From: Octopus sinensis
Lineage: Eukaryota
DNA length: 64,000 bases
Reading direction: 5' to 3'
Assembly (NCBI RefSeq): GCF_006345805.1
Contig: NC_043021.1
Coordinates: 13,020,001 to 13,084,000 of the forward strand
Below, piece by piece: positions 1,896 through 52,525 of the stretch. The translations under genes were made by a program, and so were the position numbers. The stretch's first letter is position 1; every line of letters starts with the position of its first letter. Under the pieces are notes generated by a model. The model did not search any database. It saw nothing but the letters and a program-made list of their open reading frames with translations, and was not told where the DNA came from.

Positions 1896-2032
1896 TATTC
1901 TGTGTCTGGGGAGAGTCATTTTCTTTTTGTGCCTTATAATTTAACACACTCACTGGTAAAATTTCCACTTATTCCTTATTTATTTTCCTAAAATTTTCGT
2001 TGCGTCTTGCAACCTTTTCAATAGTCTTGACT
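1896..2032 (-). mobile_element. Short repeat family P3 (Penelope-like pLTR fragment with hammerhead-like motif)
   Basis: Near-identical to 25737-25872; partly matches 23226-23372. Confidence 0.6.
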
Positions 2033-2551
2033 TTGTCCGTTATTCACACTGCATTCCTTTTTGTTTGTTTGTGGATCAGCACAATGTTTACAAAATGTTC
2101 CTAACATGGGAAAAGAAATCTGTTTCTTGTACCTGTGTGGTCAGTAGCAAATTTCCATTCTGCTGTTCTTTGTTTCTTTGGACAGTCTGTTTCCCTGACT
2201 ACTGACTTGATTTCAGTGTCTCAGAACTGAAACGAGATATATTTTGTGTAGTGGGAGCTGGATCGTAATCTTCTCCACTTTGTCATATGTAGAAATATTG
2301 ACCCACAACTTCAGGGTTTAAATTTATGCTCCATCCTTTTGTCAGTAACATTGGTAGATTGGCAAGTTACAGCAATTTAGCTGACATTTTACTCAACTTG
2401 TGGTAATGGAACTAAAATTACGGTACCTTGATCGTAGTTTTGATTAGTTGCTTGGTTGTCAACCTTTCTGTAAAATTTTAAAGAATAAATAAATGGTAGG
2501 TGCTGTAGAAGTAACATTGACCTTTATACAGTATGAAATTTTTTCTTCCAG

Positions 2552-2692
2552 CCTCGCCATATTCCAACACAAGAAGGTAGAAAAAGACAGTCGAAACACA
2601 GGAAGCCATTCTCTAAGCATAAGCGTAATCTGCGCAAATCTATTGTTCCTGGAACAGTGCTTATTCTGTTAGCAGGAAGGCATAAGGGAAAG
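2552..2692 (+). CDS. RPL6: RPL6 coding exon 2
   Basis: ttccag acceptor; [47 protein letters not shown] (KOW motif start); GTATGT donor. Confidence 0.96.
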
Positions 2693-4565
2693 GTATGTGT
2701 ATTTCTTCAGTTTTGTGGATGTTAACTAATGTCCATCTGTCTTTTCTTTTCTCTCTCTCTCACTCTTTCCTAATTAGTTGCTGTTTAAATTTATGTGCAA
2801 TAAACTGGTTATATTTCAAATACACAGAATATTTTAACATTTTTTAAATATACAATCCTAATAATATTTAATGTTTAATCATGAAAAATGTATAATAGGA
2901 ATTTTTAAACATCAAATGACCACGAGGGTCCCACCTCCTTGAGTAAAACGGGAGTCGTTCAATATAATCGGTTGGCTTGGGATTGTTAATGCTAAGAAAC
3001 TAACTTAAATCTTCCTGGTCTTGTGCCGGGATTTGCATTTAGCACATTTGTTGCTGTTAATTTTTGTGCCAAAGGTTTAAGATTGTCATGAATTGAAAAA
3101 TTATATAGGACTGAGTGATCTCTTTAACGATATGCCCTAACAGTTTTTTTTTCTCTTGGTGAAACGCTATGCCCTAACAGTTTTTTTTTCTCTTGGTGAG
3201 GAATTACTTTCTGTACAGAATTTAAAATGGTTAATAGTGGAAGAAGCTTGTGGATGGATACATGTTGAATATTAAAGATTAATTTTTACTAACCAACATA
3301 TTGTGATGTTTGGAGCACAAAGAAAGGGCCCATAATCAATTCTGTTGCATAACTTTTGTCTCAAAGTGACCCTAATTACAAGTAAATTCAACAAAATATA
3401 AAAATAAATTTTGTTTAAGCATCACCATAGAAAATGTCAGCTAATATTCAATTTTAATATAGAACTGTGCATATCACTAGATTATTAATTGCATTTAAGG
3501 CACATAAGAACAGGTAAAATAAAAGTGAAATAAACTCACATGCATACATGAATACACAGCCCTAGTCAAACCATCCAGCCCATGCCAGCATGGACAACAG
3601 ACATTAAATGATGATATGTAATAAAGATTTACAAAAGAAATTAAATCAAAACTTGTCACTCACCTGACAGGTAAATAAAAAGTGAAAACGAAGTAAATTT
3701 GAAAAATATTTATAAGATCAAATCATACATATATACACTATTCCCACTATTTCTGTGCTGGTAACTTGTAAAACATCCCACTCTACATAATGCAACCTTG
3801 CAGAATGAACATTGGAAAGCAGTTTTAATTTTGTTTTTTCTATATCCAATGGCAGCCCTTTTCTACTAGCAATAACTGTAGCACACGTATATGTTATCAC
3901 AGCTTCTAAATCCACTGCAAGTTTAACCAAACTAAAAAAAAATTTATCAAAAAATAATATATGGCTGTGGTTACAGTATGGAAGCGATAAATTCCAGACC
4001 ACATCGTACCAGAGGCCATGCTGACTTACCTAGTTGTCCCTTTTCCCTCTATAAAAACTAAAACCACAACAGTACCCTGTATTTGCTTTGCAAATCTTCC
4101 AAACTTTGATCCCCCACTTTGTGGGTTTTCCTGGCATGTATTGTCGGAAATGTAGTCTGCCTTTATACCTCACTATGTTCTCATCAATGGATAAAGGTAT
4201 ATACCAGGGTTGTAAAGTGTTTTATATGCAAATGCAGTTATTGAAGGGTCTTATTTTAAAAAAAGGGAGCTAAGTTTGGTTCTCCTTGTACTGGGGTACT
4301 ACTAGTGTCTCACACGTAAATAGTTTTACAAATCCTGTCTTGATGCTGGAAATGTATTGGACTCCAAAAGGTGCATTACTCCACTTCAATTTCTTTCAAA
4401 AATTGAAATAAAAAGGGAGTATTCTATTTACTTATATTATTGAAGACAGAATGGGTTTGTTAGGAAACGTCCCTTATTTTTGTTTTCATTTAAATGTATT
4501 GTTTCTTCAGTACTGATGATAACAAGAATTGTGAAAACTCTATGATAATTCTTTCTTTCCTCTAG

Positions 4566-4614
4566 CGTGTTGTATTCCTGAAGCAGCTTAGCAGTGGTCT
4601 GCTCCTTGTGACAG
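4566..4614 (+). CDS. RPL6: RPL6 coding exon 3
   Basis: ctctag acceptor; RVVFLKQLSSGLLLVT(G); GTAAGG donor, phase 1. Confidence 0.96.
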
Positions 4615-5155
4615 GTAAGGGCTTTTATAGTATTTCTACCATTTTGGCCTTTCTTTTACCATGATATTCCTGCTGTTGTCTCCTGTTTATTTCTATATTA
4701 GGGTAGTGTTCAGAGCACAGCAAGGAGGTTACTCAAATAAATTTACAAAATTTTCATTTTAGAGTTACTCTAATTACATGAATTAAGTAAAATATACAAT
4801 TTGCCATCCTTTAAAATACCATTTTCAATATTTGGGATAAATAATAATAGTCGACAGTTGTGTGCGTATAAAACTGCATGTGTGTGCAAAGAGGCAACAA
4901 GAGAGCACGAAATATTATTGGAGTTTGGGAAAGATATCCTAGTGAAGGATAGCAACAGAATTTTCTCATGTTATATCAAAGATAAGGTGCATTCTAAGGA
5001 TACATTGTGTATATATACACACACACAGGGAATTGTATTTGTGCCCATATCCATTAGCATCCCTCCCTTGTTTGCAATCAGAATGCCATATGTTTGTTGA
5101 GAGGCGTTCTTTGTGCAACATGTAGTTGAATGTTGTCTTGCAAGAGAATTGGCCT

Positions 5156-5592
5156 GTCTATAAGGGATTGAAACATCAAACCTTGCTGCTAACTCACATG
5201 TAGTTTGAGATGTGTCCACTTCCACTACAGTTTCCAACTCATCATTATCCACCTTGGTCTCGGGTCTACCACGGGGCTGATTTTCAAGAGTAAAGTCACC
5301 AGGCCGGAACTTCTCAGACCATTAACGTACAGTGAGCTCATTTGCCACATCTTCGTCAAATACCTCATTGCTGTTTGGGATGCATTGGTTCCATGACAGA
5401 ACTATTTATAAACAATACGAATTTTTGATCTATCCATGGAATCACAAAAATTGATTTACAAAAGAAAACTCACAATGTAATCAAATACCATGAATTTTAT
5501 AGCGTAAAGTGATGTAACTCTTCAATGCTGTAAAGGAAAGAATTGCCAGGATAGGGGCATAAAGTCTGACATTTCATTCAGAATGACCTGAT
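5156..5592 (-). mobile_element. Decayed mariner transposon fragment
   Basis: Minus-strand translation DNDELETVVEVDTSQTTCELAARFDVS resembles the mariner transposase second HTH. A TA-flanked terminus-like sequence lies near 5590. Confidence 0.65.
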
Positions 5593-5798
5593 AATGTAAA
5601 TGTTCAATTTCCTTCTCTTAAGTTGAGCTCCCGTTAACAAATATAATTCTTTGATCTGTCAATCCTCTGAACTCTCATGTCTATAAATTCTTAGCAAGTG
5701 AAACCTCATTATCAATTTATTTTCCCCAGTCCTTGTGTATACATGTCTCTCTGTGTTTTTTTTTGTGTACTTAATCTTTGCCGATGCGATTGTTTCAG

Positions 5799-5983
5799 GT
5801 CCATTTGCAATGAACGGCTGCCCGCTGCGTCGTGTCAACCAGATCTATGCCATTGCCACCACAGCTAGAGCTAACGTGAGCAAGGTCAAGATACCACCCA
5901 GGATAAATGATAACTATTTCAAGAGGAAGGCCAAGAAGACTAACAAACACAAAGAAGTGGAATTGTTTGAAACAGAGAAGAAG
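5799..5983 (+). CDS. RPL6: RPL6 coding exon 4
   Basis: tttcag acceptor; (G)PFAMNGCPLRRVNQIYAIATT...INDNYFKRK...FETEKK; GTAAAT donor. Confidence 0.96.
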
Positions 5984-6748
5984 GTAAATTCACTTTTGGA
6001 TCTTGTTAACCCTTTAGTGTTCAGAGTAATCTGTCAAGTGTAATGTTAGTTTATATTTTGAATTAATCTTTAGATTATCTTGTTAAGTGATTTTGCTACC
6101 GTGATTGTTTAGTGTTAGAATGACATTTTAGGGTTCAGGTGGGAGCCCAGATCTGGCCAGTTTCAACATAAAACAGGTCAAATGTTTTGGCTGGAGATGG
6201 GTGCTTTGAATGCTAATGGGTGAAGACAATTTACTAAACCATGGGTGGTCTTGAGTATATTTTTTTATCCTTTTTGCCTGTTTCAGTCATGTCACAGTGC
6301 AATGTATATTGCCTTAAAAAATTCAATCCCGTTTTTTTTTTTTTTTTTTTTTAATGCTACTTATTTTATCAGTCTCTTTTCTTGGACTGCTATGTTATTG
6401 GAGACACATATGCACACATGTATATGATAGGCTTCCACTCGGTTTCCATCTATTGATTTCACTCAGACACAACTAGACTGCTTCATCAAATTCATTTCAA
6501 TAATTAGCATAAGTGGTTGGGAACAGAAACAATTATTTGTTTTCTATTTACTATTCAAAATGAGATTTTTAATGTCAGTGTACTTGCTTGAGAAAAGGCT
6601 TCATGAGGTGGTGTTTGTAATATCAAGCTGGTTACCTACTTTGCTGTGGTAATATTATAACCAATAAATGTGAAGACATTTCTTAACAGTAAGTGTTAGG
6701 TGCTTCTGCTCAGCTGAAGTGTAAGCTGGATTGCCATAAAATGCTGAC

Positions 6749-6977
6749 TTAAGCCTTCCGTTACCAACCCGGCTGAAACCACCTCTGGTTTCTGTGTACA
6801 AATGTCTTGTTTTCATAGGTTTTGAATTAAAATCTTCCACCAAACCTTAGTCACAATTTATGTTCCTAAAACTGGCTGAATGATAACTAAGTTATTTTAC
6901 TAAATTCTTTGTTATATTTAAAATAATGGAAAGAAACACAGCACATCTCAAAATAAATACAGTAACGAAAGGGTTAA
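6749..6977. mobile_element. piggyBac-like MITE family b
   Basis: TTAA-(C)CCTTYYGTTAC...GTAACGAAAGGG-TTAA termini. Copies at 29186-29407, 37010-37628 and 63891-64000 (truncated by window). Confidence 0.75.
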
Positions 6978-7490: not shown

Positions 7491-7514
7491 ACAGTGTACA
7501 AGTTGTTCTTTGGG

Positions 7515-7520
7515 AATAAA
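7515..7520 (+). terminator. Polyadenylation signal of RPL6
   Basis: AATAAA 25 nt after the stop, followed by a GT/T-rich downstream element. Confidence 0.8.
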
Positions 7521-21592: not shown

Positions 21593-22406
21593 CTTGTGTT
21601 GTAGAATGTTTTCGGCCAGGATAGAGAGTAACGTGACATTGACTGTTTTGGATCTCTTGAAATTTATGATGACCAATTGTTGGTGCCTTCTGTGAAGGTG
21701 GAACAGTCATCATTTGGGACAGGCCGGCTGGTTGTGTTGGAGGGACCCGTGACTGACTTGATTCTTTAAAACTGGAATTGGTCTCATTAAAATTAGAATC
21801 AATAGTTTTTGTTTTCCTTGAATCTGTAAGGGTAGCTTGTGACAGGTTTGTACGTGGAAGAGTCACTTGTAACAGATTTGTATCTGGAAGAGTCAACTGT
21901 GACAGGTTTGTATCTGGAAGAGTCAGCTGTGATAGGTTTGTATCTGGAAGAGTCAACTGTGACAGGTTTGTGTCTGGAAGAGTCAACTGTGACAGGTTTG
22001 TGTCTGGAAGAGTCAACTGTGACAGGTTTGTGTCTGGAAGAGTCAGCTGTGATAGGTTTGTATCTGGAAGAGTCAGCTGTGACAGGTTCATATCTGGAAG
22101 AGTCAACTGTGACAGGTTTGTATCTGGAAGAGTAATTTGTGACAGGTTTGTATCTGGAAGAGTCAACTGCGACAGGTTTGTATCTGGAAGAGTTACTTGT
22201 GACTGGCATATCTCTGAAAATGCATTTTGTGACAGGTTTATGTCTGGAAGTGTCATTTGTGACAGGCTTAATTTTGGATCAGTCATCTGTTGGCTTGCAT
22301 CATGTACTGTTGTTTTTCCGTTTCTGATTTCTGTATTCTTATCAATTGTTTCAGCAGGTAAAGTTGGAAATAATATTTCTGAACCAGAAGATGATGCCAC
22401 ATCCAT
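21593..22406 (-). CDS. Uncharacterised protein, first coding exon with (TLPDTNLSQL)n repeat
   Basis: Acceptor ttacttgacag before 22436, in-frame TAA upstream, ATG at 22406 (ACAATGG). Donor CAAG|GTAAAT after 21593, phase 1. Confidence 0.75.
21836..22270. repeat. 30-bp coding minisatellite, about 14 units (12 well conserved)
   Basis: Unit gacaggtttgtatctggaagagtcaactgt repeats at an exact 30-bp period from 21841. Confidence 0.97.
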
Positions 22407-22690
22407 TGTGTTAATTCTGTTGGCAGAGATTTAAAACTGTCAAGTAAAAGAAATAAAGAAACATTTTTTTTTTCATCATTGCCTTCGAAATGATGAGGAG
22501 CGTCTTTTAACAACAACAAAAAAATAATAATAATTTGGTTAAAGTTTACATTAACCAACTTGTTTTTCATAAACTTTGTTGATTCTTAAATTCCAGCAAT
22601 GGACTACACGTGTTACTTCTGTATCATCCTTCCATAAAATGTATTTATGGGGAGAAAAATATTGAAAAACATCAACATATGTGAAAAAAC

Positions 22691-23083
22691 GCAGGAGTGG
22701 CTGTGTGGTAAGTAGCTTGTCTACCAACCACATGGTTCCGGGTTCAGTCCCACAGCGTGGCACCTTGGGCAAGTGTCTTCTATAGCCTCGGGCCGACCAA
22801 AGCCTTGTGAGTGGATTTGGTAGACGGAAACTGAAAGAAGCCCGTCGTATATATGTGTGTGTGTGTGTATATATATATATATTATATATATATATGCGTG
22901 TGTGTGTCTGTGTTTGTCCTCTAGCATTGCTATGTTTTTATGTCCCCGTTACTTAGCGGTCCGGCAAAAGAGACCGATAGAATAAGTACTGGGCTTACAA
23001 AAGAATAAGTCCCGGGATCGAGTTGCTCGATTAAAGGCGGTGCTCCAGCATGGCCGCAGTCAAATGACTGAAACAAGTAAAAG
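22691..23083 (+). mobile_element. CORE-like SINE family A, full length
   Basis: Same head, core and tail as 16458-16852. Further copies at 12770-13050 (-), 29500-29848 (-), 36058-36428, 37709-38025, 45742-46135 and 63035-63398 (-). Confidence 0.85.
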
Positions 23084-23163: not shown

Positions 23164-23372
23164 TTCTGTTTTCGTTTTTGGATTTGGTTTGCAAGATTCT
23201 TTATGTGAGTTCGTGTGTTGAAGCATATTCTGTTGTGTCTGGGGAGAGTCATTCTCTTTTGGTGCCTTATAATTTAGAAGAATAAAAAAGAAATAAGTGG
23301 AAATTTTACCGGTGAGTGTGTTAAATTATAAGGCACCAAAAGAGAATGACTCTCCCCAGACACAACAGAATA
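23164..23372. mobile_element. Family P3 copy with perfect ~51-bp inverted duplication
   Basis: 23226-23276 is the reverse complement of 23322-23372; tacattt occurs on both flanks. Confidence 0.7.
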
Positions 23373-25736: not shown

Positions 25737-25974
25737 GTTGTGTCTGAGGAGAGTCATTTTCTTTTTGTGCCTTATAATTTAACACACACACCAGTAAAAT
25801 TTCCACTTATTTCCTATTTTTATTTTCCTAAAATTTTCGTTGCGTCTTGCAACCTTTTCAATAGTTTTGACTCTTATAAGGCACAAAAAGAAAATGACTC
25901 TCCCCAGACACAACAGAATACTTCAACACACAAACACACATAAAGAGTCTTGCAAACCAAAGCCAAAAACGAAA
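25737..25974. mobile_element. Family P3 copy with inverted terminal duplication
   Basis: 25737-25872 matches 1896-2032; 25874-25974 is an inverted, extended copy of its start. Confidence 0.75.
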
Positions 25975-27910: not shown

Positions 27911-28194
27911 TTAAAGTGCTGAGCTAGCAAAATTGTTAGCATGCTGAACAAAATGCCTAGTGGTATCTCTTCTGGGTTCAAATACTGCCAAAGTTGACTT
28001 TCTTTTCAAGGCTGATAAAATACAAATGAGGTGATGAAAAGTTCATGGCTTTAAGGGTATTGCAAAAGACCTTTTTGGAGGCCCAACCTTCTGAGTTCTT
28101 TTACAGGGCTTAGAAAAAACTGAAGCACTGTTGCAATAAGTGTGTGAATCTGAGAGGGGAATATGTTGAGTGAAACCATAATTAACTGATACCC

Positions 28195-28496
28195 TTATTT
28201 ACATTTGATGGATATTTGTCTTCATCTTGTTTGTTGTTAACACAATGTTTCGGCTGATATACTCTCCAGCCTATTTCAGGTGCCCTGGGAAATTTCGCAC
28301 CTGGGTTCTCATTCCTAAGATACTTTTCGATATTATTATTCTTCAGGTCATTGCCTGGAATCAAACTCGGAATCTTGGGGTTAATAGCCCGCACTCTTAA
28401 CCACCACACCATATGCCTGTGGGCATAACAACAAACAAGATGAAGACAAATATCCATCAAATGTAAATAATTCCTCATCTCTCAAATATAGAACTG
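28195..28496 (-). mobile_element. tRNA-headed SINE with hammerhead-like tail, 45-bp inverted duplication and 12-bp TSD (family P2)
   Basis: TSD TAACTGATACCC at 28183-28194 and 28497-28508. Perfect inverted arms 28195-28239 / 28426-28470. Minus-strand A box TGGTGTGGTGG and B box GAGTTTGATTCC. CTGAAAT-A-GGCTG..CAGCC-GAAAC core. It interrupts an older repeat. Confidence 0.8.
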
Positions 28497-30189
28497 TAAC
28501 TGATACCCCCTTTTTTTTTTACTCAGAACCAGGGACTTTTCAGCACTCCCTTGTAAATACTAGTTGAACCCTGGGGGTTGATGTAATTGACAAGCTGCAT
28601 TCCCCTAAATTTGATGCCTTGTGCTTACAGTTGAAAGTATTATTATCTGATTGTGGCCGTTGTCAGTGCCACCCCAACTGGCCTCCGTGCTGGTGGCATG
28701 TAAAAAGCACCATCCGACCGTGGCCATTTGCCAGCCCCGTCTGGCACGTAAAAAGCACCTACTACACTCACAGGGTGGTTGGCGCTAGGAAGGGCATCCA
28801 GCTGTAGAAACATTGCCAGATCAGACTGGGCCTGGTTTCCCAGACCCCAGTTGAACCGTCCAACCCATGCTAGCATGGAAAGTGGATGCTAAATGATGAT
28901 GATGATCATCATCATCATCAAGTTGGCAAAATTAAGCATGCCAGGCAAAAATACTTAGTGGCATTTTGTCTGTCTTTACATTCAGAGTTCAATTGCTGCC
29001 AAGGTTGACTTATGTCTTTCATCTGCTTTTGGGGTTGATAAAATAAGTACTAGTTGAGACCTGGAGCAGGGTCGATGTAACTGACTTATCCCCTCTTTGC
29101 AAAATTCTGGCCGTGTGCCTGCAGTAGAAAGGATGATTATTACCATCAGGACAGTAAAGTAAAGATGGTGATGACAGCAGATTAGTTAACCCTTTTGTTA
29201 CCAACCCGGTTGAAACTGGCTCTGAGTACAAATGCCTTGTTTTCATAAGTTCTGAATTAAAATCTTCCACCAAACCTTAGTCACAATTTATGTTCCTAAC
29301 ACTAACTGAATGATCACTAAGTTATTTTACTAAATTCTTTGTTATATTTAAAGTAATTGAAAGAAACACAGAGCATCTGAAAATAAATACAGTAATGAAA
29401 GGGTTAATCCTTTAATGTATGAAATTTAATCCCCCCTCCCTCCCATCTCTATTATTTACAGGTGCATGTCAATGTCAGAATTGTTTGCATGTTTTCTTTA
29501 CTTCGGTCATTAGACTGCGGCCATGCTGCAGCACAGCCTTGAGGAATTTAGTTGAATGAATCAACTTAGTACTTTTCTTTTTGAGCCTGATACTTTATCA
29601 GTCTCATTTGCTGAACTGCTAAGTTACAGAGACATAAACACGTGGAGGTGGGGTATCATCGCAGACACAAAAACACACAGACACATACATTTATGATGGG
29701 CTTCTTTCAGTTTCCATCAACAAAATCCACTCACAAGAGTCTGGTTGGCCCGAGGTTATAGAAGACACTCGCCTAAGGTGCCACACAGTCGGACTGAACC
29801 TGGGACCATGTAGTTAAAAAGCTACCTTCTTACCACACAGCCACACCTAGGGCTTTTTACCTGTACATGTTTCTTCAAATTACATCAAGACCAAGTTTGG
29901 TTTTCAGTCTTCCAAGGGGAAGGTAGTAATAAAAAATAAAAAGTACCAGTTGTGGCAGAGTACCGGAGACAGCTGATTGGTTGACAAAATCATGTGACTG
30001 CTCCTCACCCTATCATTTTTTTTTTTTTTTGATGTGAGGATTCATCACAACTCATTTCTAAACAGAAACATTTAGCCCCACCTTTGCCTTGAATAAACAA
30101 ATAAAGAGAAAACAAGAAGTATATAAATAAATAAATAAATAAATTTTAAAAAATTAAAAATAAAGATAAAAAAACATTTTTAAAACATG

Positions 30190-40075: not shown

Positions 40076-42729
40076 TTGTAGTCCACCAAATCAAATAGTT
40101 TTAAACCCTTCGAGTTGTACCCTAATATAATTAGCAGTATGCCTCCATCCCCAGGAATTTAGCTGCTGCTGATACTGTCACTATGTCGACTTCACTCAGA
40201 AAAACTAAAACATCAGGATGCTTATTTAGTCGAATAAGAGTGGAAATATTCCGGAGTTTAATTGACCTCGTATAATTTGTGTGTGCATGTGTGCACGTGC
40301 GAATACATGAATTATGCGTGTATTTTATTACACGATAAACAGGAACATATTCAAATTCATAGGCTCAAGAGTGGCTGTCTGTTAAGTCTACTTCCCAACA
40401 ACATGGTTCCAGGTTCAGTCCTGCTGTGTGGTACTTGGGCAGTGTCTTGTATTATAGCCCCAAGCCTTGTGAGCAAATTTCACAGACGGAAACTGAAAGA
40501 AGCCCATCGTACATATCCGATTGTGGCCGTTGCCATTGCCAGCCTCGCCTGGCCTCCGTGCCTGTGGCATGTAAAAAGCACCATCTGATTGTGTCCGTTT
40601 GCCAGCCTCGTCTGGCACCTGTGCTGGTGGCACGTAAAAAGTACCCACTACACTCCCGGAGTGGTTGGCGTTAGGAAGAGCATCGAGCCGTAGAAACATT
40701 GCCAAATCAGACTGGGCCTGGTGCAGCCTTCTGGCTTCCCAGACCCCTGCTGAACCGGCCAACCCATGCTAGCATGGAAAGCGGACGCTAAACGATGATG
40801 ATGATGATATGTATGTGAATAACTGGTGTTGCTTTGCTTATGTCCCTGTAATGTAGCAGCTTGGCAAAAGAGGCCAACAGAAGTTCCAGACTCAAACAAA
40901 TATTGTACTGGGGTTTATATGTTCAACTAAACTCCTCAAGGCAGTGCCCCAGCATGACTGCAGTCCCGTGCCTGGAACAAGTTAAAAAAAAAAAAAAAAA
41001 ATCGTTTCTATTACAGGCACAAAGGCAAGGCCTGAAATTCTGGGGAGTGGGGTAGTTAATTACATCAACCCATGTACTTTATTGGTGCCAAAAGGATGAA
41101 AAGCAAAGCCAACTTCAGCAGAATTTCTTTTCTACTCCTAGGAACAAGGACTGAAATTTTGGGGAAGGGGGCCAGTCAATTAGATCGAACCCAGTAAGCA
41201 ACTGGTACTTAATTTATTGACCCTCAAAAGAATGAAAAGCAAAAATCGACCTCGGTGGACAGACAAATTACCGCTAAGTGTTTCTGCTAGCTCATCACCT
41301 TACTTTGGTAGAATTTATACGCATCCCCACAGGCTGATAAGCATTTCGTCCTGCATGGTAACGATTTTGCCAGGTTGTCATCTTTAGATAACTTATAATA
41401 ATGCTATTTAATAGAACAAGTTACTCAGATCTTTTCAGGAATTACAATGCCCATTCCCCTACAGAATTACTGTTTAGCCACGGGTTAGCTCTGGTGGAGT
41501 AGATCTATGACCAAACTATTCCTACATGATCATTCCAATTTATACACACATTAAGTGCATCTCAATTGGCCACATGATCAAGAGTTCAAACGCTATTACT
41601 ACTGCTACTACTATGCTGTGTCTATAAACACAAAACATCTCTATACACTTCCTGCTTGTCTGACTCTTAAGGTCAGATTCTCACCCTCACTTCCTCCTCG
41701 TGAGATTGATATTAGGACGGAAATAAAAACAAAAAAAAAAAAAAAATTAAAAAGCCAACATGACAAAGTGAGCATTTTAAATAAAATACTGAACCAAACA
41801 AAAAACAATAGCTTTGGTAGGACAGACCAAGCATTGTAGTAGATAAGGATGGTGGATTCTTTTAAGGTTTACAATTGGTGGAGTTTACCATATCCGTGAT
41901 CTACAGATGGCAACACTTGACTTGAAACTGCTCCCACTTTAGGAGAGAGTGGTTTAGTTTTAAACCAATAAATGAAATAATGAGAGAAGGCCTGGCGAAC
42001 TTGAGTTCGGGCCACTTTAATAGCAGAAAGGTTTTTGAGGGCTGCTTGTATACTGACAGAATTGGAAGCAGTTTGCTTTCTTATGCTATTATCTCGATAA
42101 TGAATGAATGATCGTGGATTCAACAGGAAATATTATTGCAAAAACAGTAGTATCTTTCTGTTTTAGTTTTCATTACAATTTAAAATTTTTTAAATCTTTG
42201 TTTAAATAAACCCATTTCAAGACTTTCTTGAGTCACAAGAAAAAAGTCTGCGGACCGCATGCAGCCTGCAGGCCTTAGGTTGGCCAGCCTTGCTCTACGG
42301 ACTCACTTGAGCAGCTAGAAATTGCAGCCAAGTCTTCCAAATCACATGCAACTATCTTAATCTCTTAGCATTCTGATTTATTTATGAAATGTCATGCTTA
42401 TTTATTCATATTGTTTAGAATTAATTGTGGATTATCTTGTAGCATCAAGATTTCAATGGTGTGGCTGTGTACTTTTAGAATGACATTGTAGGATAGGTAC
42501 GAGGGGTTGGATCTGGTCAGTTTTAACATAAAACAGGTAGAATATTTGGGCCGGATATGGCCAGATTAAATGCTGAAGGGTTAAGGAAGGATGTATTATA
42601 GTCCCACATATACAAAAAGATGGGATGGGCATGACTAGAACACTGACTATAAATCCCTATTTATATTAAAATACAGTTCTTTTGTATCTATTTTGAAAAT
42701 GAGGAATTTAGTAAAACCACTCATTAACT

Positions 42730-43325
42730 GGTTGTATACTGTCAATCTAACGTGAACGTGACAGTAGGGGATTACACCACCGCTGTTTAGCCCTAGGAAG
42801 CATTGACACTTCCTGATGGCTTCGACACATTTTTTCCTGTGTCCTTATATATTTACGAAGGGGAGACAAACAGCCCCAGCAGCCAGGCCTGCATCTAGAG
42901 ACACGCATGTTTCAGGATCTTTGCCCATCATCGGTCTAGTGTAGCAGACGCCCGCCAGCCGTGGATATCTGTCCCGATTCGCAAATGTATATATCTAATT
43001 TTCAGTGAAGTTTATTCACTGATTACCAAAATCAGAAATATTAAATTTCTAAATATCTCATAGAGATATGTACGGTGGTGGGGCGATAGAATGGTTGTAT
43101 ACTGTCAAACTAACGTGGGGGTGTTTGTCTCCCCTTCGTAAATATATAAGGACACAGGAAAAAATGTGTCGAAGCCATCAGGAAGCGTCGATGCTTCCTA
43201 GGGCTAAACAGCGGTGGTGTAATCCCCTACTGTCACGTTCACGTTAGATTGACAGTATACAACCATTCTATCGCCCCACCACCGTACATATCTCTATGAG
43301 ATATTTAGAAATTTAATATTTCTGA
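42730..43325 (-). mobile_element. Penelope/retrozyme-like non-autonomous element (family P1): 363-nt unit plus inverted partial copy, 11-bp TSD
   Basis: TSD ACTCATTAACT at 42719-42729 and 43326-43336. Unit restarts at 43093. 43117-43325 is an inverted copy spanning the unit junction. Contains a hammerhead motif. Confidence 0.85.
42895..42939 (-). ncRNA. Minimal type I hammerhead ribozyme (U4C core variant)
   Basis: Minus strand reads CTAGA-CCGATGA-T-GGGcaaagatCCT-GAAAC-atgcgt-GTC-TCTAG. Helix I is CTAGA/TCTAG, helix III is short and quasi-palindromic, and the cleavage triplet is GUC. Helix II is weak. Confidence 0.7.
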
Positions 43326-46300
43326 ACTCATTAACTCTTTAGCATTTAATTCCTTCAACATTTAATTCGGCCATATCTGGTCAAAATATTCTACCTGTTT
43401 TATGTTAAAACTGACCAGATCCAATATCTCAGACCTATCTATTCTAAAAACATACGAACATACCATTGAAATATCAAAGCTAGAAGATAATCCAGGATTA
43501 ATTCAAAACAATGTGAATAAATAAGCAATACATTTGACAAAGTAATCTGAAAGCTAAAGGGTTAAACTGTGGTTAGAGCATCAGGCTCACAATCATAAGG
43601 TAGTGAGTTCGATTCCTGGACTGGGCTGTGTGCTGTGCTCTTAAGCAAGACACTTTATTTCATGTTGTTCCAGTTCACTCAGCAGTAGAAATGAGTTACA
43701 ATGTCACTGGTGCCAAGCTGTATTGGTCCCTTTGCCTTTCCCTTGGGCAACATTGGTGGCATCGGAAAGGGAAGCTGGTATGCATGGGTGCCTGCTGGCC
43801 TTCCATAAACAACCTTGCCCAGACTTGTGCCTTGGAGGGGAACTTTCTAGGTGCAATCCCATGATCATTTGCAAGTGACAAGGGTCCTTTAGCAACATGG
43901 AATTTTGATGGAAGTTTTGAATTTAAATCACTTCAAAACAAGAAGTTTGTATCATCATAGAACCAGTGGTGATATCAACCAGACTGATATCAAAAGGGTT
44001 AATCAGGCCTTGTTGACCTGGGGCTAAACAGCAACTCCTTCGAAGATAGACACAACAAAACTGGTGTCCAAGCATGGATACAGTCCACTTGATGAAACTA
44101 GACTCTTGATGACCACCTCCAATAGAAATATGAGTTTCCATTCAATTGCCATTAATGTTATGTACACCAGGAACTGTTGTTTGCTCCACATAAATAAGAG
44201 GGGAGGGAGACTGGATCAAAATGTTAAAAGTGGAACACTTCCTCTACATTAGGATATGTGATAAAATCTTTAAAAAAGCAGTAAAAGCTCAAAATGTTGT
44301 CGTTGCTAAGTTTCTGCCATTACTGCAGGCTAACATTATCAGTGATAAATTTAACCGACGTCCTTGAATGTAGATCTGTATCTATGGTGCTGAAATTAGC
44401 CTAGTTTCCAGTTGCATCCACTTCAGCGGGTGTATTTTTAAACCAGGATGTCTAGTTTAATCCTTTCGTGATCATATTTCTAATGAAACACACGGTCTCA
44501 GCATTTCAATTTTGAAAAATATCGAGAATTTAGAGATTTTACAGAAACAAATGTTTTTTTGGGGGGGTGGGGGGTCTTCATTAAACTTATGTTTGGAACA
44601 TAACAAAATGGTTCAAACAATGAATTATGATGGAAGGTTTTTGAGTTAGGGTTGGGATGGAAGATTTTAGGTTGTGATAGAAGGTTTTAAGTTTTAAGGC
44701 GTATGTCAAGGTGCATGGCCCAGTGGTTAGAGTGTCAGGCTCACAATCATGAAGTAGGGAGTTCAATTCCTGGACCAGGCTGCATGTTGTGTCCTTGAGC
44801 AAGACACTTTATTTCACATTGCTCTAGTTTATTGAGCTGTAGAAATGAGTTGTGATGTCACTGGTGCCAAGCTGTATCAGCCTTTCCCCTAGGTTTCATC
44901 AGTGGCATGGAGTGGGAAGACAGGTATGCAAGAGCAACTGTTGGTCTTTCATAAACGACCCATGTCCACACTTGTGCCTTGGAAGCTAAATTTCTAGGTG
45001 CAACGCCATGGTCATTCATGACTGAAGTGGGGTCTTTAACCCTTTAGCATTCAGATCATTCTCTCAAATGTAATGCTCATTGGCTCACATTGTTTTGGAT
45101 TAATCATGTATTATCTTGTAGCTTGGAAATTTCCATGATGTAATTCTTTATTTTTAGAATGACATTGTAGGGTAGGTGTGAGAGGCTGAAATCCAGCCAC
45201 TTGGAATGTAAAACATGTAGACTATTTGGTTCAGATATGGCCAGTTCAAATAGTAATGGATTAAAACAAATTTTCTATCAAAGAATGAGAAGCAGTCTCA
45301 GGTGGTTTGGATCCAAAACGGATAAGTATCAGAAGAACTACATTTGTTCCCATCATCTCTATTTGAATAGGGGTCAGGCTTTTCTTGGGCCATGTCTATC
45401 AGTGGTACAGAGACCTAATAGTAATACTGCATTTAGAGAAGAAGAAAAAATGATACCCACAAGTTTTTAATAACACAAAGGTCAATGTTTCAACAACAAC
45501 AGTATTAAAGACCACTTCTATTGTAATCACTATTTTAAATGAAATTTAAGCATTATGAAATATTTTACAACTACTTTACAGGGTGGTTCAGAAATGCTTT
45601 ACAATACATTTTTCCTAAATGAAAGACCTAATATTTTAAGCTCTTCTACTTCAATACAGTCCAGTGTCATTAACTACAACTACTACTACTATTGTTTTAC
45701 TTTGAGTAACTTCCTACTAATTCATCACCAAAATTTCCACAGGCGTAGGAGTGGCTGTGTGGTAAGTAGCTTGCTTACGAACCACATGGTTCCGGGTTCA
45801 GTTCCAGTGCGTGGCACCTTGGGCAAGTGTCTTCTACTATAGCCTCGGGCTGACCAAAGCCTTGTGAGTGGATTTGGTAGACGGAAACTGAAAGAAGCCC
45901 GTCGTATATATGTATACATATATGTGTGTGTTTATGTGTTGGGTTTGTCCCCCGCCCCCTTCGCTTGACAACCGATGCTGGCATGTTTACGTCCCCGTAA
46001 TTTAGTGGTTCGGCAAAAGAGAACCAATAGAATAAGTACTGGGCTTACAAAGAATAAGTCCTGGGGTCGATTTCCTCAACTAAAGGCGGTGCTCCAGCAT
46101 GGCCACAGTCAAATGACTGAAATGAGTAAATGAGTATACAATTTGGGTGTGTGGCCCACTAACATTCAAGTCATCACACAGCACAGTTATCTTTCTTGGA
46201 TGAGTCAGATGACACACCACTACGCCATGAGGAACTGATGCGCTGAAGTGAATTACTGATTCTTAAAAAAATATAATCGAAGGCTTCACAAATCTGAATT

Positions 46301-47992
46301 AATTTTTAACCAACTTGTGAGACATTATTACTTTGTACACAACTATGATTAACATCTTTAGCATTCCGATTATTCTGTCAAATGTAATGCTTATTTATTC
46401 ACGTTGTTTTAAATTAATTATGCATTCTCTCATGGTTTTGAGGTTTTAATGAGGTCATTGTTTATTTTTAGAATGACATTGTAGGATAGGTGAGAGACCA
46501 AATCCTGTTAGTTTGAACATAAAACAGAATATTTGGGTGGGATATGGCCACTTTAACCCTTTAGCATTCAGATTACTACCAAATGTAATGCTTATTTATT
46601 CACATTGTTTTGAATTAATCATGTATTATCTTGTAGCTTTAAGATTTTGATGAGTTAACTTAATATTTAGAATGAAATTGTAGTGTTAGTAGTGTAAGAT
46701 CCAGCCAGTTTGAGCATAAAACAGGCAGAATATTTTGGCTGGATACGGGCAGATTTAAATGCTAAAGGATGAATAAAATAAAGTAAGCAACCTTTTTCTA
46801 TGTTTTTTTCTTAGCTTAATTGTAACACCCCTTTGACATCAACATACCTGAGACCATCACTGATTCAATGATGCAAACCTGTTTTAAAATTATCTAAACT
46901 AAAACCTATCAAAATTTTATGCCAATTTATGCTCCAAACACCAGCTTAATAATGACAAAATTATTTAATTAAATTCTTCATTATTTTCAAAATGAATTAC
47001 GATAAAGTTATTGTATTTCAACAGAAATATGGTAGTGAAAGGATTATATTTCTTGTAGACCTTGCATGTGAGATGCACCATCATCATTTAGCGTCTGTTT
47101 TCCATGCTAGCATGGGTTGGACGGTTTAACTGGGGTCTGTGAAGCCGGAAGGCTTCATCAGGCCCAGTTAGATTTGGCAGTGTTTCTACGGCTGGATGCC
47201 CTTCCTAACGCCAACCACTCCGTGAGTGTAGTGGGTGCTTTTTACGTGCCACCTGCACAGGTGCCAGACAGAGCTGGCAGACGGCCACGAACGGATGGTG
47301 TTTTTACGTGCCACCGGCACGGGGGCCAGGCGAGGCTGGCAACGGACACGAACGGATGGTGCTTCCCACAAAATAAAAAAAAATAAAAAAATTGAGAACC
47401 ACTGCTCCAGGCATAGAGCTAATTCATTTGGGCTCAACTAATCTGTCTTGGGTTTGTCTCATACTTCCAAGTTGCAGCCATAAAACACTGTTTTTTTGCA
47501 GTCCTTGTCCCGTATACTCTGTATGGAAATAGCAGGAACAGCCCTGTTACCAAATAGAAGACATTCTCGAAATTTCTTGAGTCTCCTCAAACCTTAAACA
47601 ATTAGGCCATCACCAGCTCCACCCCTCAGAGTTAACCGTGTCATCTGAGAAGTAACAGTATTCAATCTTTGGTTGCTCTATGCTGATACAAACAGAGCAT
47701 ACGACACACCCAAAATTCATTTCCCCACAGTTTATTGTTTGTACATGCATTAGTTGAGACGTCTCGATCACAAGCCTCTCTTCTTTCATATCAATGAAGG
47801 CTATTTCTTAGAAAACCCCGACTCTCATCCTAGCCCAAACTTTCATGCTAGACATCAGAAGCCCTAATCCAAATCAAAGTGAAAGAAACACCAATCTATG
47901 CAACTAGGATGAGGATCCTGCCACACAAACTACTAGTGCCCTCCATACAGTATATAATAGCAACAGAGACAGTATTAATACCAGGAGGTAAT

Positions 47993-48730
47993 ATCTACTC
48001 CCATTTCAATGGGGATGTTCTATTAGAATTACAGTAGTATAGTTGGGGGTAAAGGGTAAAGACCCCCTTCAGTCATGAATGACCAGGGGATTGCACCTAG
48101 AAAGTTCGCCTCCAAGGCACAAGTCTGGACAAAGTTGTTTATGGAAGACCAGCAGTCATCCGTACACACCAGCCTTCCCTCTCCACGCCACTGATGTTAT
48201 TCAAGAGAAAAGCAAAAGGGGCCGATACAGCTTGGCACCAGTGACGTTGCAATTCATTTCTACAGCAGAGTGAACTGGAGCAATGTGAAAATAAGTGTCT
48301 TGCTCAAGAACACAACATAGCCTAATCTACTCCCATTTCAATGGGGATGTTCGATTAGAATTACAGTAGTATAGTTTGTTCTAATCAAACATCCACGTTA
48401 GGTTGGGGGTAAAGGGTAAAGACCCCCTTCAGTCATGAATGACCAGGGGATTGCACCTAGAAAGTTCACCTCCAAGGCACAAGTGTGGACAAAGTTGTTT
48501 ATGGAAGACCAGCAGTCATCCGTACATACCAGCCTCCTCTTCTCTCCATGCCACTGATGTTATTCAAGAGAAAAGCAAAAGGGGCCGATACAGCTTGGCA
48601 CCAGTGACGTCGCAACTCATTTCTACAGCTGAGTGAACTGGAGCAATGTGAAATGAAGTGTCTTGCTCAAGAACACAACACAGCCTGGTCTGGAAATCAA
48701 ACTCACTAGCCACTGAGCCATGTGCCTTCA
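47993..48730 (-). repeat. ~330-bp tandem duplication including a family D SINE and its flank
   Basis: atctactcccatttcaatggggatgttc...ttgggggtaaagggtaaagacccc... starts at 47993 and again at 48325. Confidence 0.9.
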
Positions 48731-48971
48731 CTAGAGGCATAACTAGACAAATTACATATTTATAGCTTTCCTAGCAAATCTTAACCCTTCAGCATTCAAA
48801 TTATTTTCAAAGCTTCAAGATTACAATGATACGAGGTTATATTTTTGGGATAATACTGTAGGGTAGGTGTGAGAGGCAAAACCTAGCAGTTTGGACACAA
48901 AACAAGTATAATATTTGGGCCAGATATTGTCGGTTTAAATGCAAAAGCATTAAGCGTTCTTTTATTATCAT

Positions 48972-49160
48972 TATTAATTCCCTCCGCCTTAGCGAAGGTG
49001 GAGGTATTGTTTTCAGTCGCATTTGTTTGTTTATCCATGGATAAGATATCAAGAACTGCTGGATGGAGTCGGATGAATTTTTTAGGGATGTTTGGCCCTA
49101 TGACTGGTACAAACTGATTAGATTTTGGGATCAATCCAGTACCGGACAAGGATTCTGGAT
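48972..49160 (+). mobile_element. Helentron-associated (HINE/DINE-1-like) fragment
   Basis: ttaattccctccgcctt-agcg-aaggtggaggtattgttttcagtcgcatttgtttgtttatcc: 5' hairpin followed by a GTTT microsatellite. Confidence 0.5.
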
Positions 49161-49400
49161 TATTTGTTATATTTACTTTACTCGATTACAATCTTACGTT
49201 AACTTTCAAGTCTTTCTCAATTATCTCCCTTTAGGCTGTAACTATTTTGAATGCAGAATTTGTTAACTAAGGATAAACTACAGCCACCTTCACATTCCAC
49301 GACTACCATTGGGATCAATCAGGTACTGGACTCATGAGCTAAAAGTCACACTAATTTTCAAAAACTGTTGTTTATGAAGTAGACATCAAGTAGGACTTAC

Positions 49401-49583
49401 CTTTTCTCTGACGTTTTCAAATGAAGATGGCGACACTACAGAAAAACAAACCAAAAAGACATCTGTCTGGGGGTAGCTGAGGGGTCTTAGCCTATCGTAG
49501 TCTTCCTGACCAGCAGTATCAAACAATCCTAAAGTGTATGGCTCACCTCCAATCATTACTGTTACTGCATAGTTATCAAAAAC
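49401..49583 (-). CDS. CDC42: Cdc42 coding exon (aa 36-96)
   Basis: [61 protein letters not shown]. ctctag acceptor, GTAAGT donor. The exon for aa 1-35 was not found in the window. Confidence 0.97.
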
Positions 49584-52264
49584 CTAGAGAAAAGGGAAAA
49601 AACAAAACAAAAACATAATTAAAGTTAATTAACATAGTTAAGTGTTCAATATGAATGTAATTATATTAGTTTAAGTGTTTCTATAGAACAGACCGGGCGT
49701 TGTGAGTGTTTATTGAGCGAAAGCACCTAAAGCTCCACGAGGCTCTGGCAGGGGATGGTGGTGATCCCTGCTGTACTCTTTCACCACAACTTTCTCTCAC
49801 TCTTACTTCTTGTTTCTGTTGTACCTGTATTTCAAAGGGCCGGCCTTGTCACTCTCTGTGTCACGCTGAATATCCCCGAGAACTACGTTAAGGGTACACG
49901 TGTCTGTGGAGTGCTCAGCCACTTACACGTTAATTTCACGAGTAGGCTGTTCCATTGATTCAGATCAACCGGAACCCTCGTCGTCGTAACCGATGGAGTG
50001 CTTCCATTTTCCATAGAGCAGAACTCTCACCATTCAGATTTCCAACCAAATAGTCCAAAACCATGTTTTTCATGTCACAGAAATGAAATATTAAGGGGGG
50101 GAGGGGGAATCATAATGCATGTGGTAGCTCAATGTTCTGGCCATTATTAACTCCTTAGCATTCAAATTACTTGGTCAAATGTAATGCTTATTCATTCATT
50201 TTGTTTTAAATTAATCATAATCATGAATTATTTCGTAGCTTTTGAGATTTCAATCCCATCATTGCATATTTTTAAAATGACATTATAGGCACACTTTCTA
50301 ATGATGATGATGAAGAATCAGTCATATAGAAAGTGACAAGGACCATCAAGAAACTTCAAATACTCAACATTTTAAATGACTTGTTCTAAGTGACCATCAC
50401 TAGGGACCTGAACTTCTAAACAAAGTCTTTTGGAATAGCTAGCCTACAATGATAGGCGTATGCCTGTGCATAAGAGTAACCTTAAAGAGAATGAATGATA
50501 GGTTGAGAAAAATTTATCAATCTGACAGAACCCTCCCCACACATACACCTATCCTGCCACTGATATCTATCAAACTTAGCATGAGGAAGCATTATGGATG
50601 AAATTTGATAAAAGGAAGCAGTGTAAAAGCCAACCAAATGGAATGCATCTGCTCTCGGATAATAGGCTTAATTTATTTAGTTTAACATTTCCACCTGTCT
50701 CTTCCCTTTGAGTACCTTAAGCAGAGCCTATTGCAAATATCTGAACCAGGCCTTTGGTCTCAGGTTAACAAAATATCTTCATGCACAGTTTTTAACTTGT
50801 ATCAACCCTTGTGTCATGGGTTTTTTTTCTCTTCCCACCAATCTTCAAACCCTGAGAACCACTCAGTGTGTTTGATTTAGATATTAACCTTAGCTTTTTC
50901 TAGCAGAGGGCATTTTGGGGCATGTCTTTAGACGATGGAGTTTGAATGATTGGGACTTAATTGAAAGGAAACATTAACTAACGCACATCAATCCTAACTA
51001 TTGTTATTTTTCATTTAACAAGAATTATTGCACATCTTAACTATAAGCAGCATGTAGATGAGACCTTTATGTTTTACACAACAAACAAGAATAAATTGTC
51101 TTCAGATTCTTCTTTCTATATTTGCAGTCTTTCACTCAAAATGTCTCCACAGAGTTCTCAGTCTTGAATGGAAATTTAACCAATGTTTCAATTGTAAGCC
51201 AATGTTTATTAATACCTTTTAGTTTTGTTCTTTAGTCTCTGAATACTGAAACAACCATTATAAAGGGTCCCTTGGGACATCTTGCAACAGAAGCAGCACT
51301 GACTTTAATTTTACCTTCAACAAAATTTATTCTGTTCAGAACTTGTCGGTTCCCATCACCTCCACTGATACCATACTTGCTACCAGTTCCATCAACACAC
51401 AGGAAATTCTGTGAAATATCACAGCTAAATTTACCCCAGTCTGTTCTTCAGAGTCAGAAAGGAAATAAAAATCACTCATTTAGCTGGTAGAATTGGTGAT
51501 AATGTTTAGCCTGCTGAGGATTCTTTAGAATTTAACAGGAACCCCACCAACTTGAAAGAAATTCCCATGTTGACTTTAACTAAAAAGTGATACAGAACAT
51601 GAACTTGTGTACTTTTTGCTACAGTGGTAGTACAACAATTGACTAAAAATACTTTGAATTAACTGGATAGAGGAAATTGCACAGGCACATACATAATATA
51701 TTGGTCTTTGATCCATCAATTCCATGCACAATATACTGTCTTTGATCCACCAAAAATACGCATGATAAATTCTCTCTGACATACAAAATAGATTATCGAT
51801 AAATAACCAAATATATTCTCTTTGATCCGTGAATAGCATATACAATAGATTCTCTTTGATCCTTAATGGTTAGGTAGAAGATAAATTTAAAGCGATCAAA
51901 AACCATTTAAACCTCCAGTTTTATATCTTAGATTTCATCATCATCATCATCATCGTTTAACATCCGCTTTCCATGCTAGCATGGGTAGGACGAATGACTG
52001 AGGGCTGGCGAACCAGATGGCTGCACCAGGCTTCAATCTTGATCTGACAGAGTTTCTACAGCTGGATGCCCTTCCTAACGCCAACCACTCTGAGAGTGTA
52101 GTGGGTGCTTTTACGTGCCACCGGCACGAGGACCAGTCAGGCGGTATTGGTAACGACTTAATGTTTGTCAATAGAGAGGTGGGGAGGTATGTGTGTACTT
52201 ATAAATTTAAGTATACTTTGTAAATACCTCCTTTGAGTAAAACCACCAATAGAAGAGAATATGA

Positions 52265-52525
52265 CGCACCCTCAAAATAAGGGTAGATGAACATTGCAAA
52301 GCTGTGATACGAGGAGATATTGATAAATCGGGTATAGCTGATCATGTATGGAAAAATGGAGACCACTTCCCCCAGTGGGATGAAGTTAAAATAATAGACA
52401 GAGAACACCAATGGAAAATACGAAAACTAAAAGAAGCAGCACATATGCTAGGATACAACAACCTCCTAAGCAGACTGAGTGCAGATATGAACAGCATATC
52501 GGAACCGGTATTAAGGAAGGATAGG
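52265..52525 (+). mobile_element. Penelope-like element remnant (C-terminal part of GIY-YIG endonuclease)
   Basis: RTLKIRVDEHCKAVIRGDIDKSGIADHVWKNGDHFPQWDEVKIIDREHQWKIRKLKEAAHM matches the RxLxxRxxEH...SxIAxH...W...ExxWxxRKxKEA pattern. Confidence 0.8.

What the first reader, a model, noticed from the sequence alone, without database searches (positions are those of the whole stretch)
1896..52525. System-level: three unrelated short elements share a Penelope-type architecture with hammerhead-like cores, beside a Penelope endonuclease remnant
Seen: families P1 (42730-43325), P2 (28195-28496) and P3 (25737-25974, 23164-23372, 1896-2032) share no obvious sequence. Each family nonetheless shows a body with a hammerhead-like core (YYGANNN, helix II, GAAA, short helix III) and a partial inverted duplication that extends past the other end. 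P1 and P2 have 11-12 bp TSDs. A GIY-YIG fragment lies at 52265-52525. Established: Penelope-like elements have pseudo-LTRs often in inverted arrangement and carry minimal hammerheads; metazoan non-LTR retrozymes are thought to depend on them. Inference: this genome hosts a guild of small RNAs mobilised by Penelope machinery, one of them with a Pol III head. I cannot tell whether these families are already catalogued.
Basis: partly seen in the sequence, partly recalled or inferred. Interest (0 to 1): 0.8.

Follow-up and report, generated by a model that had tools for sequence, protein, structure and literature searches.

The report
Penelope retrotransposon with tRNA-type promoter
Two of the three short repeats are the cut-off ends of protein-coding Penelope retrotransposons and the third is a non-coding ribozyme repeat of a known kind, but one coding element begins at a tRNA-derived head and has no run of four T's in its whole sense strand, so it is likely transcribed by RNA polymerase III, which I found no report of for a self-mobilising retrotransposon.

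Summary
The architecture is real and genome-wide: type I hammerheads, two fixed 3' ends per family (the Penelope 'tail'), inverted arms and variable 9-16 bp TSDs. The 'guild of small RNAs' reading mostly fails. P2 is the pLTR of the coding Penelope/Poseidon family that left the window's GIY-YIG remnant; P3 is the pLTR of a second coding PLE. Only P1 is non-coding (366-nt retrozyme-type unit, partner not found). All that is known in kind. New: in the P2 family a tRNA-derived head (16 of 16 invariant positions) starts about 30 nt after the ORF stop, 16 of 22 copies that reach it end there, short and coding copies show no separate subfamily, and the 2.85-kb consensus unit has no T4 run (5.3 expected in the ORF; T3 ratio lowest of 40 control PLE ORFs). 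That points to Pol III transcription of an autonomous retrotransposon (about 50%); a TATA-like box upstream keeps Pol II alive, and I have no RNA evidence. In passing: an ORF1-only element with a zinc knuckle sits 22-34 nt behind TATA-like boxes of P1 and other repeats.

The parts
42730..43118 (-). P1 body, just over one 366-nt unit, ending at the inner 3' site (B)
43116..43325 (+). P1 inverted arm, ending at the outer 3' site (A), about 55 nt beyond B
42893..42941 (-). P1 type I hammerhead (CCGAUGA core, GUC triplet, palindromic helix III); predicted cut between 42900 and 42899
42719..42729 (.). P1 left TSD, 11 bp (right copy 43326-43336)
28195..28425 (-). P2 body = pLTR of the coding Penelope family, from the tRNA-head start to the inner 3' site (B)
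28346..28418 (-). tRNA-derived head with A and B boxes (decayed in this copy)
28235..28285 (-). P2 minimal hammerhead; core mutated in this copy; lies inside the start of the ORF frame
28426..28496 (+). P2 inverted arm ending at the outer 3' site (A)
28183..28194 (.). P2 left TSD, 12 bp (right copy 28497-28508)
25737..25874 (-). P3 body with U3-A8 minimal hammerhead (core starts 25861), ending at site B; inserted in a TA run
25874..25974 (+). P3 inverted arm ending at site A, about 60 nt beyond B
23164..23372 (.). P3 copy made of two short opposed arms (one A end, one B end), no hammerhead
1896..2085 (-). P3 copy with hammerhead (core starts 2021), no inverted arm
52222..52525 (+). Remnant of the P2-family Penelope ORF: endonuclease C-terminal half, GIY-YIG motif deleted, 96% identical to the family; ends where another repeat begins

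Best explanation
P2 and P3 are the terminal repeats (pLTRs) of two different protein-coding Penelope-like retrotransposons and P1 is a non-coding hammerhead repeat with the same ends; all three were likely copied by a Penelope enzyme priming at two fixed internal RNA sites, and the P2 element is likely transcribed by RNA polymerase III from the tRNA-derived head in its pLTR. Steps: (1, shown) every family has two fixed 3' ends, and copies with an inverted arm carry one of each, flanked by variable TSDs. (2, inferred from the anole element's biochemistry) the endonuclease nicks both strands 10-16 bp apart, each nick primes reverse transcription at one site, and the two truncated cDNAs join head to head. 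(3, shown) in P2 and P3 the ORF frame begins inside the pLTR, so the priming sites also lie near the 5' end of the RNA; (inferred) priming there yields short copies that run back to the RNA start. (4, shown) for P2 that start is the tRNA head and the sense strand has no T4 run; (inferred) Pol III reads head, hammerhead, ORF and the next pLTR, and the promoter travels inside the RNA. (5, inferred) P1 is a retrozyme-type passenger copied from multimeric or circular RNA by an unidentified PLE. Steps 1-3 about 0.9; step 4 about 0.5.
For: P2 follows the endonuclease stop in 26 of 29 loci; full-length pLTR-ORF-pLTR copy with RT and GIY-YIG. P3 long copies reach RT and GIY-YIG and two full-length copies have P3 upstream. 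Central-arm 3' ends at A or B: 27 of 30, 67 of 70, 25 of 30; A+B pairing in 6 of 6, 20 of 22, 11 of 12 scorable inverted copies; TSD>=9 bp in 6 of 30, 18 of 70, 15 of 30 against 1, 0, 1 in shifted controls. Same signature explained in vitro in PMC11167929. Hammerhead covariation across P1 and two related families: 9 of 13 pairs change on both sides, 96.9% paired, 0 of 500 shuffles. Pol III: 16 of 16 tRNA invariant positions; 16 of 22 arms end at 296-316, 5.7 ends per 100 nt against 0.75 and 0.48 on either side, p 6e-9; T4 runs 0 against 5.3 in the 829-codon consensus, p 0.002-0.004, none in the head/pLTR either; 7 natural copies 1 against 33.6, not independent; 73 other PLE ORFs 568 against 392, 1 of 73 with none; T3 ratio 0.53, below all 40 in-frame controls; the P3 PLE in the same genome has 3 T4 runs in 2.9 kb.
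Against: No RNA data. A TATA-like TTTATAAG lies about 28 nt upstream of the P2 start cluster (consensus), as a Pol II promoter would. A TGCCC-AC-GGGCA hairpin sits at the cluster and could cause fold-back. The one control with no T4 run (L363) is the closest relative and has no tRNA head and a T-rich UTR, so T-poverty may be a lineage habit. A5 runs are also low in P2 (8 against 15.1, p 0.007; 7 of 39 controls are as low) and a Neptune-type ORF in this genome is mildly T4-poor (4-9 against 6.4-10.7). Non-canonical terminator words gave no significant signal (0 against 2.1, p 0.15). ARAGORN calls the head only at a 70% threshold and Rfam not at all; A and B boxes are no better kept than their flanks in genomic copies. 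An uncapped Pol III RNA must still be translated. P3 5' ends also cluster (19 of 30 within 8 nt before the motif used to pick them) without any tRNA head. No partner found for P1.
Confidence: 0.55

Rival explanations
1. Same Penelope origin for all three, but the P2 element is an ordinary Pol II unit: the tRNA sequence is a fossil SINE head in the pLTR, the TATA-like box at the ORF stop sets the start, and the lack of T runs is a codon habit of this lineage.
For: TATA-like word about 28 nt upstream of the start cluster; the closest control ORF also has no T4 without a tRNA head; A5 also low; P3 shows a 5' cluster without tRNA; PLE promoters lie in the upstream pLTR (PMC6765202 passage); a capped RNA solves translation.
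Against: The start coincides with the tRNA 5' end plus a 5-8 nt leader; all 16 invariant tRNA positions survive in the consensus; the P2 UTR is also free of T4 whereas 8 of 8 control UTRs have 1-13 runs in 300 nt; T3 depletion exceeds all 40 controls.
Confidence: 0.3
2. The pile-up of P2 5' ends comes from reverse transcriptase folding back or stalling at the small hairpin at the tRNA edge, not from an RNA start; the promoter is elsewhere.
For: TGCCC-AC-GGGCA palindrome at 302-313; several inverted junctions sit there; some copies run further upstream (6 of 22; 4 full-length loci).
Against: Copies without any inverted arm also start there; stronger hairpins downstream (hammerhead helix II) give no such spike (0.32 per 100 nt); does not explain the missing T runs.
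Confidence: 0.08
3. One reading: P1-P3 are three independent small-RNA families carried in trans, P2 being a free-standing SINE.
For: Most copies are short and non-coding; P1 has no coding partner among the loci examined; a short P2 copy keeps its internal promoter and could be re-transcribed; Schistosoma SINE-like hammerhead repeats are a precedent (PMC6765202 passage).
Against: P2 and P3 are joined to ORFs; 50 short and 57 long P2 arms show no diagnostic column outside CpG sites and the AAT run, and similar divergence.
Confidence: 0.06
4. The elements are MITE-like DNA transposons and the inverted arms are terminal inverted repeats.
For: Inverted arms in 12 of 30, 34 of 70 and 18 of 30 loci.
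Against: Arms are absent from over a third of copies, vary in length, are asymmetric by a fixed tail, TSDs vary from 9 to 16 bp, and two families continue into RT genes.
Confidence: 0.01

Closest known systems
Penelope/Poseidon elements, e.g. Poseidon-Ac of the anole (PMC11167929, parts 1-2 of 4 read)
   Same: Single RT + C-terminal GIY-YIG ORF (39% identity to the Anolis protein P0033), ORF starting in the pLTR across the hammerhead, two RT start sites giving a tail, direct and inverted pLTRs, AT-rich targets.
   Different: P2 pLTR is a tRNA head plus (AAT)n instead of a T-rich UTR; no T4 in the unit; no intron seen in the consensus ORF.
Minimal hammerheads of PLE pLTRs (PMC4209133, parts 1-2 of 4 read)
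   Same: P2 fits the described form (bulge after A9, G10.1-C11.1, palindromic helix III); P3 is the described U3-A8 variant; dual motifs on opposite strands 100-700 bp apart were noted there.
   Different: P1 has the 6-bp/4-bp canonical helices; cleavage not tested here.
Non-LTR retrozymes (PMC7229834 passages; bioRxiv 10.64898/2026.07.22.740005, parts 1-3 of 5 read)
   Same: P1: non-coding 366-nt unit, type I hammerhead, more-than-unit and tandem copies, proposed PLE dependence; the preprint derives them from pLTRs.
   Different: P1 shows the PLE tail and A+B inverted ends directly; mostly dispersed; hosts an ORF1-only element; no octopus case in the passages read.
Schistosoma SINE-like hammerhead repeats (PMC6765202 passage) and TRIMp3 Helenus/Ajax (PMC10886601 passages)
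   Same: Pol III promoter from a small RNA gene inside a retroelement repeat, with a hammerhead in the Schistosoma case.
   Different: Those are non-coding and non-autonomous; PMC10886601 states that autonomous partners must use Pol II because Pol III is weakly processive. In P2 the head is part of the coding unit.
Neptune/Nematis-type PLEs (PMC8557442 passages)
   Same: P3's coding element has a CX4CxxC linker before a C-terminal GIY-YIG and inserts into TA runs in some copies.
   Different: Clade not fixed by a tree; DKS in place of DKG; no database relative at E<=1e-8.

Membership tests
Penelope/Poseidon EN+ PLE (P2 family) | One ORF with PLE-type RT (DKG, YVDD) and C-terminal GIY-YIG | tested here: met
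Penelope/Poseidon EN+ PLE (P2 family) | Direct or inverted pLTRs with a tail at one end | tested here: met
Penelope/Poseidon EN+ PLE (P2 family) | Minimal type I hammerhead in the pLTR | tested here: met
   consensus; 1081 exact matches; cleavage untested
Penelope/Poseidon EN+ PLE (P2 family) | No Zn-finger linker between RT and EN; placement in the clade by tree | tested here: inconclusive
   no linker motif; similarity to Anolis Poseidon; no tree built
EN+ PLE (P3 family) | RT plus C-terminal GIY-YIG joined to the repeat, with an upstream pLTR | tested here: met
   (broken natural copies read by frame)
Non-LTR retrozyme (P1) | Non-coding 150-400 nt unit with type I hammerhead in tandem or more-than-unit copies | tested here: met
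   366-nt unit; tandem units in L254; 14 of 30 arms run into the previous unit; covariation
Non-LTR retrozyme (P1) | Expressed as linear and circular monomer RNA; self-cleaves | not testable with these tools
   needs northern blot, RNase R, in vitro cleavage
tRNA-derived SINE (P2) | tRNA-derived head with A and B boxes | tested here: met
   16 of 16 invariant positions; ARAGORN only at 70% threshold; Rfam negative
tRNA-derived SINE (P2) | Non-coding lineage replicating separately from its partner | tested here: not met
   head is part of the coding unit; no diagnostic columns
Pol III transcription unit (P2 family) | No T>=4 terminator inside the unit | tested here: met
Pol III transcription unit (P2 family) | Pol III/TFIIIC dependence, 5'-triphosphate start | not testable with these tools
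   needs RNA and chromatin data
MITE / TIR DNA transposon | Fixed TIRs and fixed TSD length | tested here: not met

The most novel reading that the evidence does not exclude
An autonomous Penelope retrotransposon swapped its Pol II promoter for a tRNA-derived internal promoter, purged every Pol III terminator from a 2.5-kb RT-endonuclease gene, and spread to thousands of copies as a Pol III-made, uncapped mRNA; its short copies are at once by-products and ready-made SINEs, a direct route from an autonomous element to a Penelope-carried SINE.
Probability: 0.5. Interest if true: 0.82.

Novelty: new variant of a known kind. Interest (0 to 1): 0.6.

Why it matters
The shared architecture itself is textbook Penelope biology, and it warns that short 'SINE-like' or 'MITE-like' repeats in such genomes may be pLTR fragments. 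If the P2 family is really Pol III-driven, it breaks the stated expectation that autonomous retroelements need Pol II (PMC10886601), gives a natural case of a long protein-coding Pol III transcript translated without the usual cap, and shows how a PLE escapes its dependence on an upstream tandem copy for a promoter. The near-strict pairing of one A end with one B end in three families is in vivo support for two-strand, two-site priming by a Penelope dimer. The prediction is cheap to test: one start site, two promoter boxes.

Tried and rejected
Rfam scans found no hammerhead or tRNA; only hairpin and microsatellite noise. Pfam did not name the window's endonuclease piece or three of four P2 ORF pieces. 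Search for a coding partner of P1: no P1 repeat was found joined to a Penelope ORF among 120 P1 and P3 loci plus 10 longer stretches screened with P2-family protein pieces (the one P1 locus hit, L221, was not examined further); all 30 fetched hits of a distant Penelope query were the P2 family; the Neptune-type family has its own pLTR. These probes cannot see every PLE clade. Search for a SINE-only P2 subfamily: none. No sequence relative for the ORF1-like protein or the P3 endonuclease. Four look-ups in earlier findings returned nothing. Literature searches for a tRNA- or Pol III-driven Penelope: (0 papers with all terms); octopus plus hammerhead; none showed such a case, but the library lacks most subscription papers, and Repbase, Dfam and the Zenodo library of PMC13282606 were not seen, so the families may already be catalogued. 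No supplements were read. Rows dropped: 7 of 80 control loci under 1 kb, 40 of 80 without an open frame of 400 codons, 12 of 34, 6 of 18 and 6 of 12 inverted copies whose ends were not both at A or B; three pairs of rows there are one insertion seen twice. The 15 hammerheads were picked by me from 63 to span the variants.
Full report
Setting. The window lies in a 2.72-Gb animal genome. Its repeats look like those of an octopus; that label is recalled, not from a call.

Observation. The five short stretches, their inverted arms and the P1 and P2 TSDs are as described. P1, P2 and P3 do not match each other. Each is a genome-wide family, with 81, 1081 and 610 exact hammerhead motifs and none for the reversed controls. 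Not every window copy has every feature: 23164-23372 has no hammerhead, 1896-2032 has no arm, and the P2 core here is mutated. Rfam sees none of it.

Hammerheads. P2 reads as the minimal PLE form and P3 as the U3-A8 variant described in PMC4209133. P1 has 6-bp and 4-bp helices and a self-complementary helix III. Two related families met on the way (P4, P5) give a covariation test: among 63 distinct motifs picked by core pattern only, helices I and II and the 3-8 pair change together and loop 3 stays palindromic in different letters; on 15 chosen to span the variants, 96.9% of cells pair, 9 of 13 pairs change on both sides, 0 of 500 shuffles reach the covariation score and slid controls fall to 24-51% (relatedness inflates the shuffle test). 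P3's ribozyme has only a 3-bp helix I and no such test; it is the weakest. Cleavage is untested for all.

Insertion signature. In loci picked only by the hammerhead motif, the 3' end falls on one of two sites in 27 of 30 (P1), 67 of 70 (P2) and 25 of 30 (P3); the sites lie about 55, 25 and 60 nt apart. Inverted arms occur in 12, 34 and 18 loci; where both outer ends can be scored, one is A and one is B in 6 of 6, 20 of 22 and 11 of 12. TSDs of 9-16 bp were found in 6, 18 and 15 loci against 1, 0 and 1 in shifted controls (all). This is the Penelope tail and inverted pLTR (PMC8557442 passages), which PMC11167929 traced to two internal RT start sites with nicks on both strands. MITEs are excluded.

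P2 is the end of the coding element. Searching with the window's endonuclease piece gave 3599 candidates; in 26 of the 29 other loci fetched the sequence after the stop codon runs into P2. Longer copies hold the RT, and L251 is inverted pLTR, direct pLTR piece, ORF, pLTR. The majority ORF is open over 829 codons and begins inside the pLTR, across the hammerhead; a relative at 55% identity shows the same translated hammerhead (P0004). Short arms (50) and arms running into the ORF (57) differ in no column outside CpG sites and the AAT run, with about 4% divergence each. So P2 copies come from the same source as coding copies.

P3 likewise. Long P3 copies pass through a CA-rich UTR into a GIY-YIG domain and RT, and two full-length copies have P3 upstream, with the frame again starting in the repeat. 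The linker CX4CxxC points to the Neptune/Nematis type; no tree was built.

P1 is the only non-coding unit: 366 nt, tandem in L254, 14 of 30 arms running into the previous unit. It fits non-LTR retrozymes (PMC7229834 passages; bioRxiv 10.64898/2026.07.22.740005). No coding partner was found; its dependence on a PLE is inferred from its ends.

The Pol III question. About 30 nt after the P2 ORF stop begins a 73-nt stretch with all 16 invariant tRNA positions that I checked (positions recalled) at canonical spacing; an (AAT)n run, the start codon and the hammerhead follow. Of 22 central arms that reach this head, 16 end at its 5' edge (5.7 per 100 nt against 0.75 and 0.48; p 6e-9); 4 of 30 ORF-start loci begin there too, 4 run further up. 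The sense strand has no T4 run in the ORF (0 against 5.3 under synonymous nulls, p 0.002-0.004; 2.8 and p 0.03 on the first 646 codons under the strictest permutation) nor in the pLTR. Other PLE ORFs show an excess (568 against 392 in 73; 1 with none), their UTRs have 1-13 runs in 300 nt (8 of 8), and P2's T3 ratio is below all 40 in-frame controls. In the same genome the P3 element has 3 runs and the ORF1-like genes 1-6. Against: a TATA-like word 28 nt upstream, a small hairpin at the cluster, a tRNA-less closest control that also lacks T4 in its ORF, low A5 runs, a mildly T4-poor Neptune ORF, a 5' cluster in P3 without tRNA, and no RNA evidence. I put Pol III at 0.5. PMC10886601 describes tRNA and 5S promoters only in non-autonomous LTR elements and expects autonomous ones to use Pol II; PMC6765202 describes Pol III hammerhead repeats in Schistosoma as non-coding. 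Searches showed no Pol III-driven Penelope. A curated octopus annotation lists 31 recently active Penelope-like families without such detail (PMC13282606, parts 1-2 of 3); its library was not seen.

Verdict. The system-level pattern is real but is known Penelope biology, and two of the three 'small RNAs' are ends of coding elements. The part worth following is the tRNA-headed, terminator-free coding family, and separately the ORF1-only element listed under passing notes.

Noticed in passing
L261, L262, L256, L257, L263-L312 (inside P1 units at unit position 66-80, and elsewhere): An ORF1-only element of 1.6-1.75 kb (about 450 aa, CX2CX4HX4C knuckle, ZCCHC3-like RNA-binding look-alikes in the Atlas, no RT; ends AATAAAGA plus a few bases; TSD mostly 14-19 bp). 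In 16 of 22 non-tandem junctions a TATA-like word starts 22-34 nt upstream (background 7%; only about five host types, so not independent), in P1, P4, P5 and an LTR-like host with CCAAT and TATA. Looks like a half-LINE (HAL1-like, recalled; search listing only) that targets transcription starts of other mobile elements and can then travel with P1.. Deserves its own study.
   Followed up: partly
L269, L270, L279, L290, L296, L299 (P4); L277, L282, L286, L300 (P5); L264: Further hammerhead-bearing units related to P1 in layout, about 385-400 nt, with compensatory changes; L264 holds another hammerhead with a long loop 2 (read by eye)..
   Followed up: partly
L300:5327-6556 and L473-L502: A young Neptune-type PLE family (15648 candidates, open frames up to 1009 codons) with a C/T-rich UTR and a very small hammerhead; not the source of P1, P3, P4 or P5..
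   Followed up: partly
L134, L138, L145, L146, L166, L175, L179, L189: 25 of 61 P2 arms end in the (AAT)n run; several are preceded by one of three other shared sequences, suggesting insertion into or fusion with AAT tails of other repeats. This may be how the tRNA head was gained..
   Followed up: no
L277 (flank) and window 22690-22782, 45744-45836: Other tRNA-like SINE heads; the one beside L277 aligns by eye with the P2 head at equal spacing and may be its donor class.
   Followed up: no
window 21698-22350: 30-bp minisatellite; many copies of several common SINE-like families across the window.
   Followed up: no
L308:oriented 4533-5753: A second, distant ORF1-like gene (39% identity) with the ORF1-only element inserted just before it, carrying a leader from the LTR-like host.
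   Followed up: no
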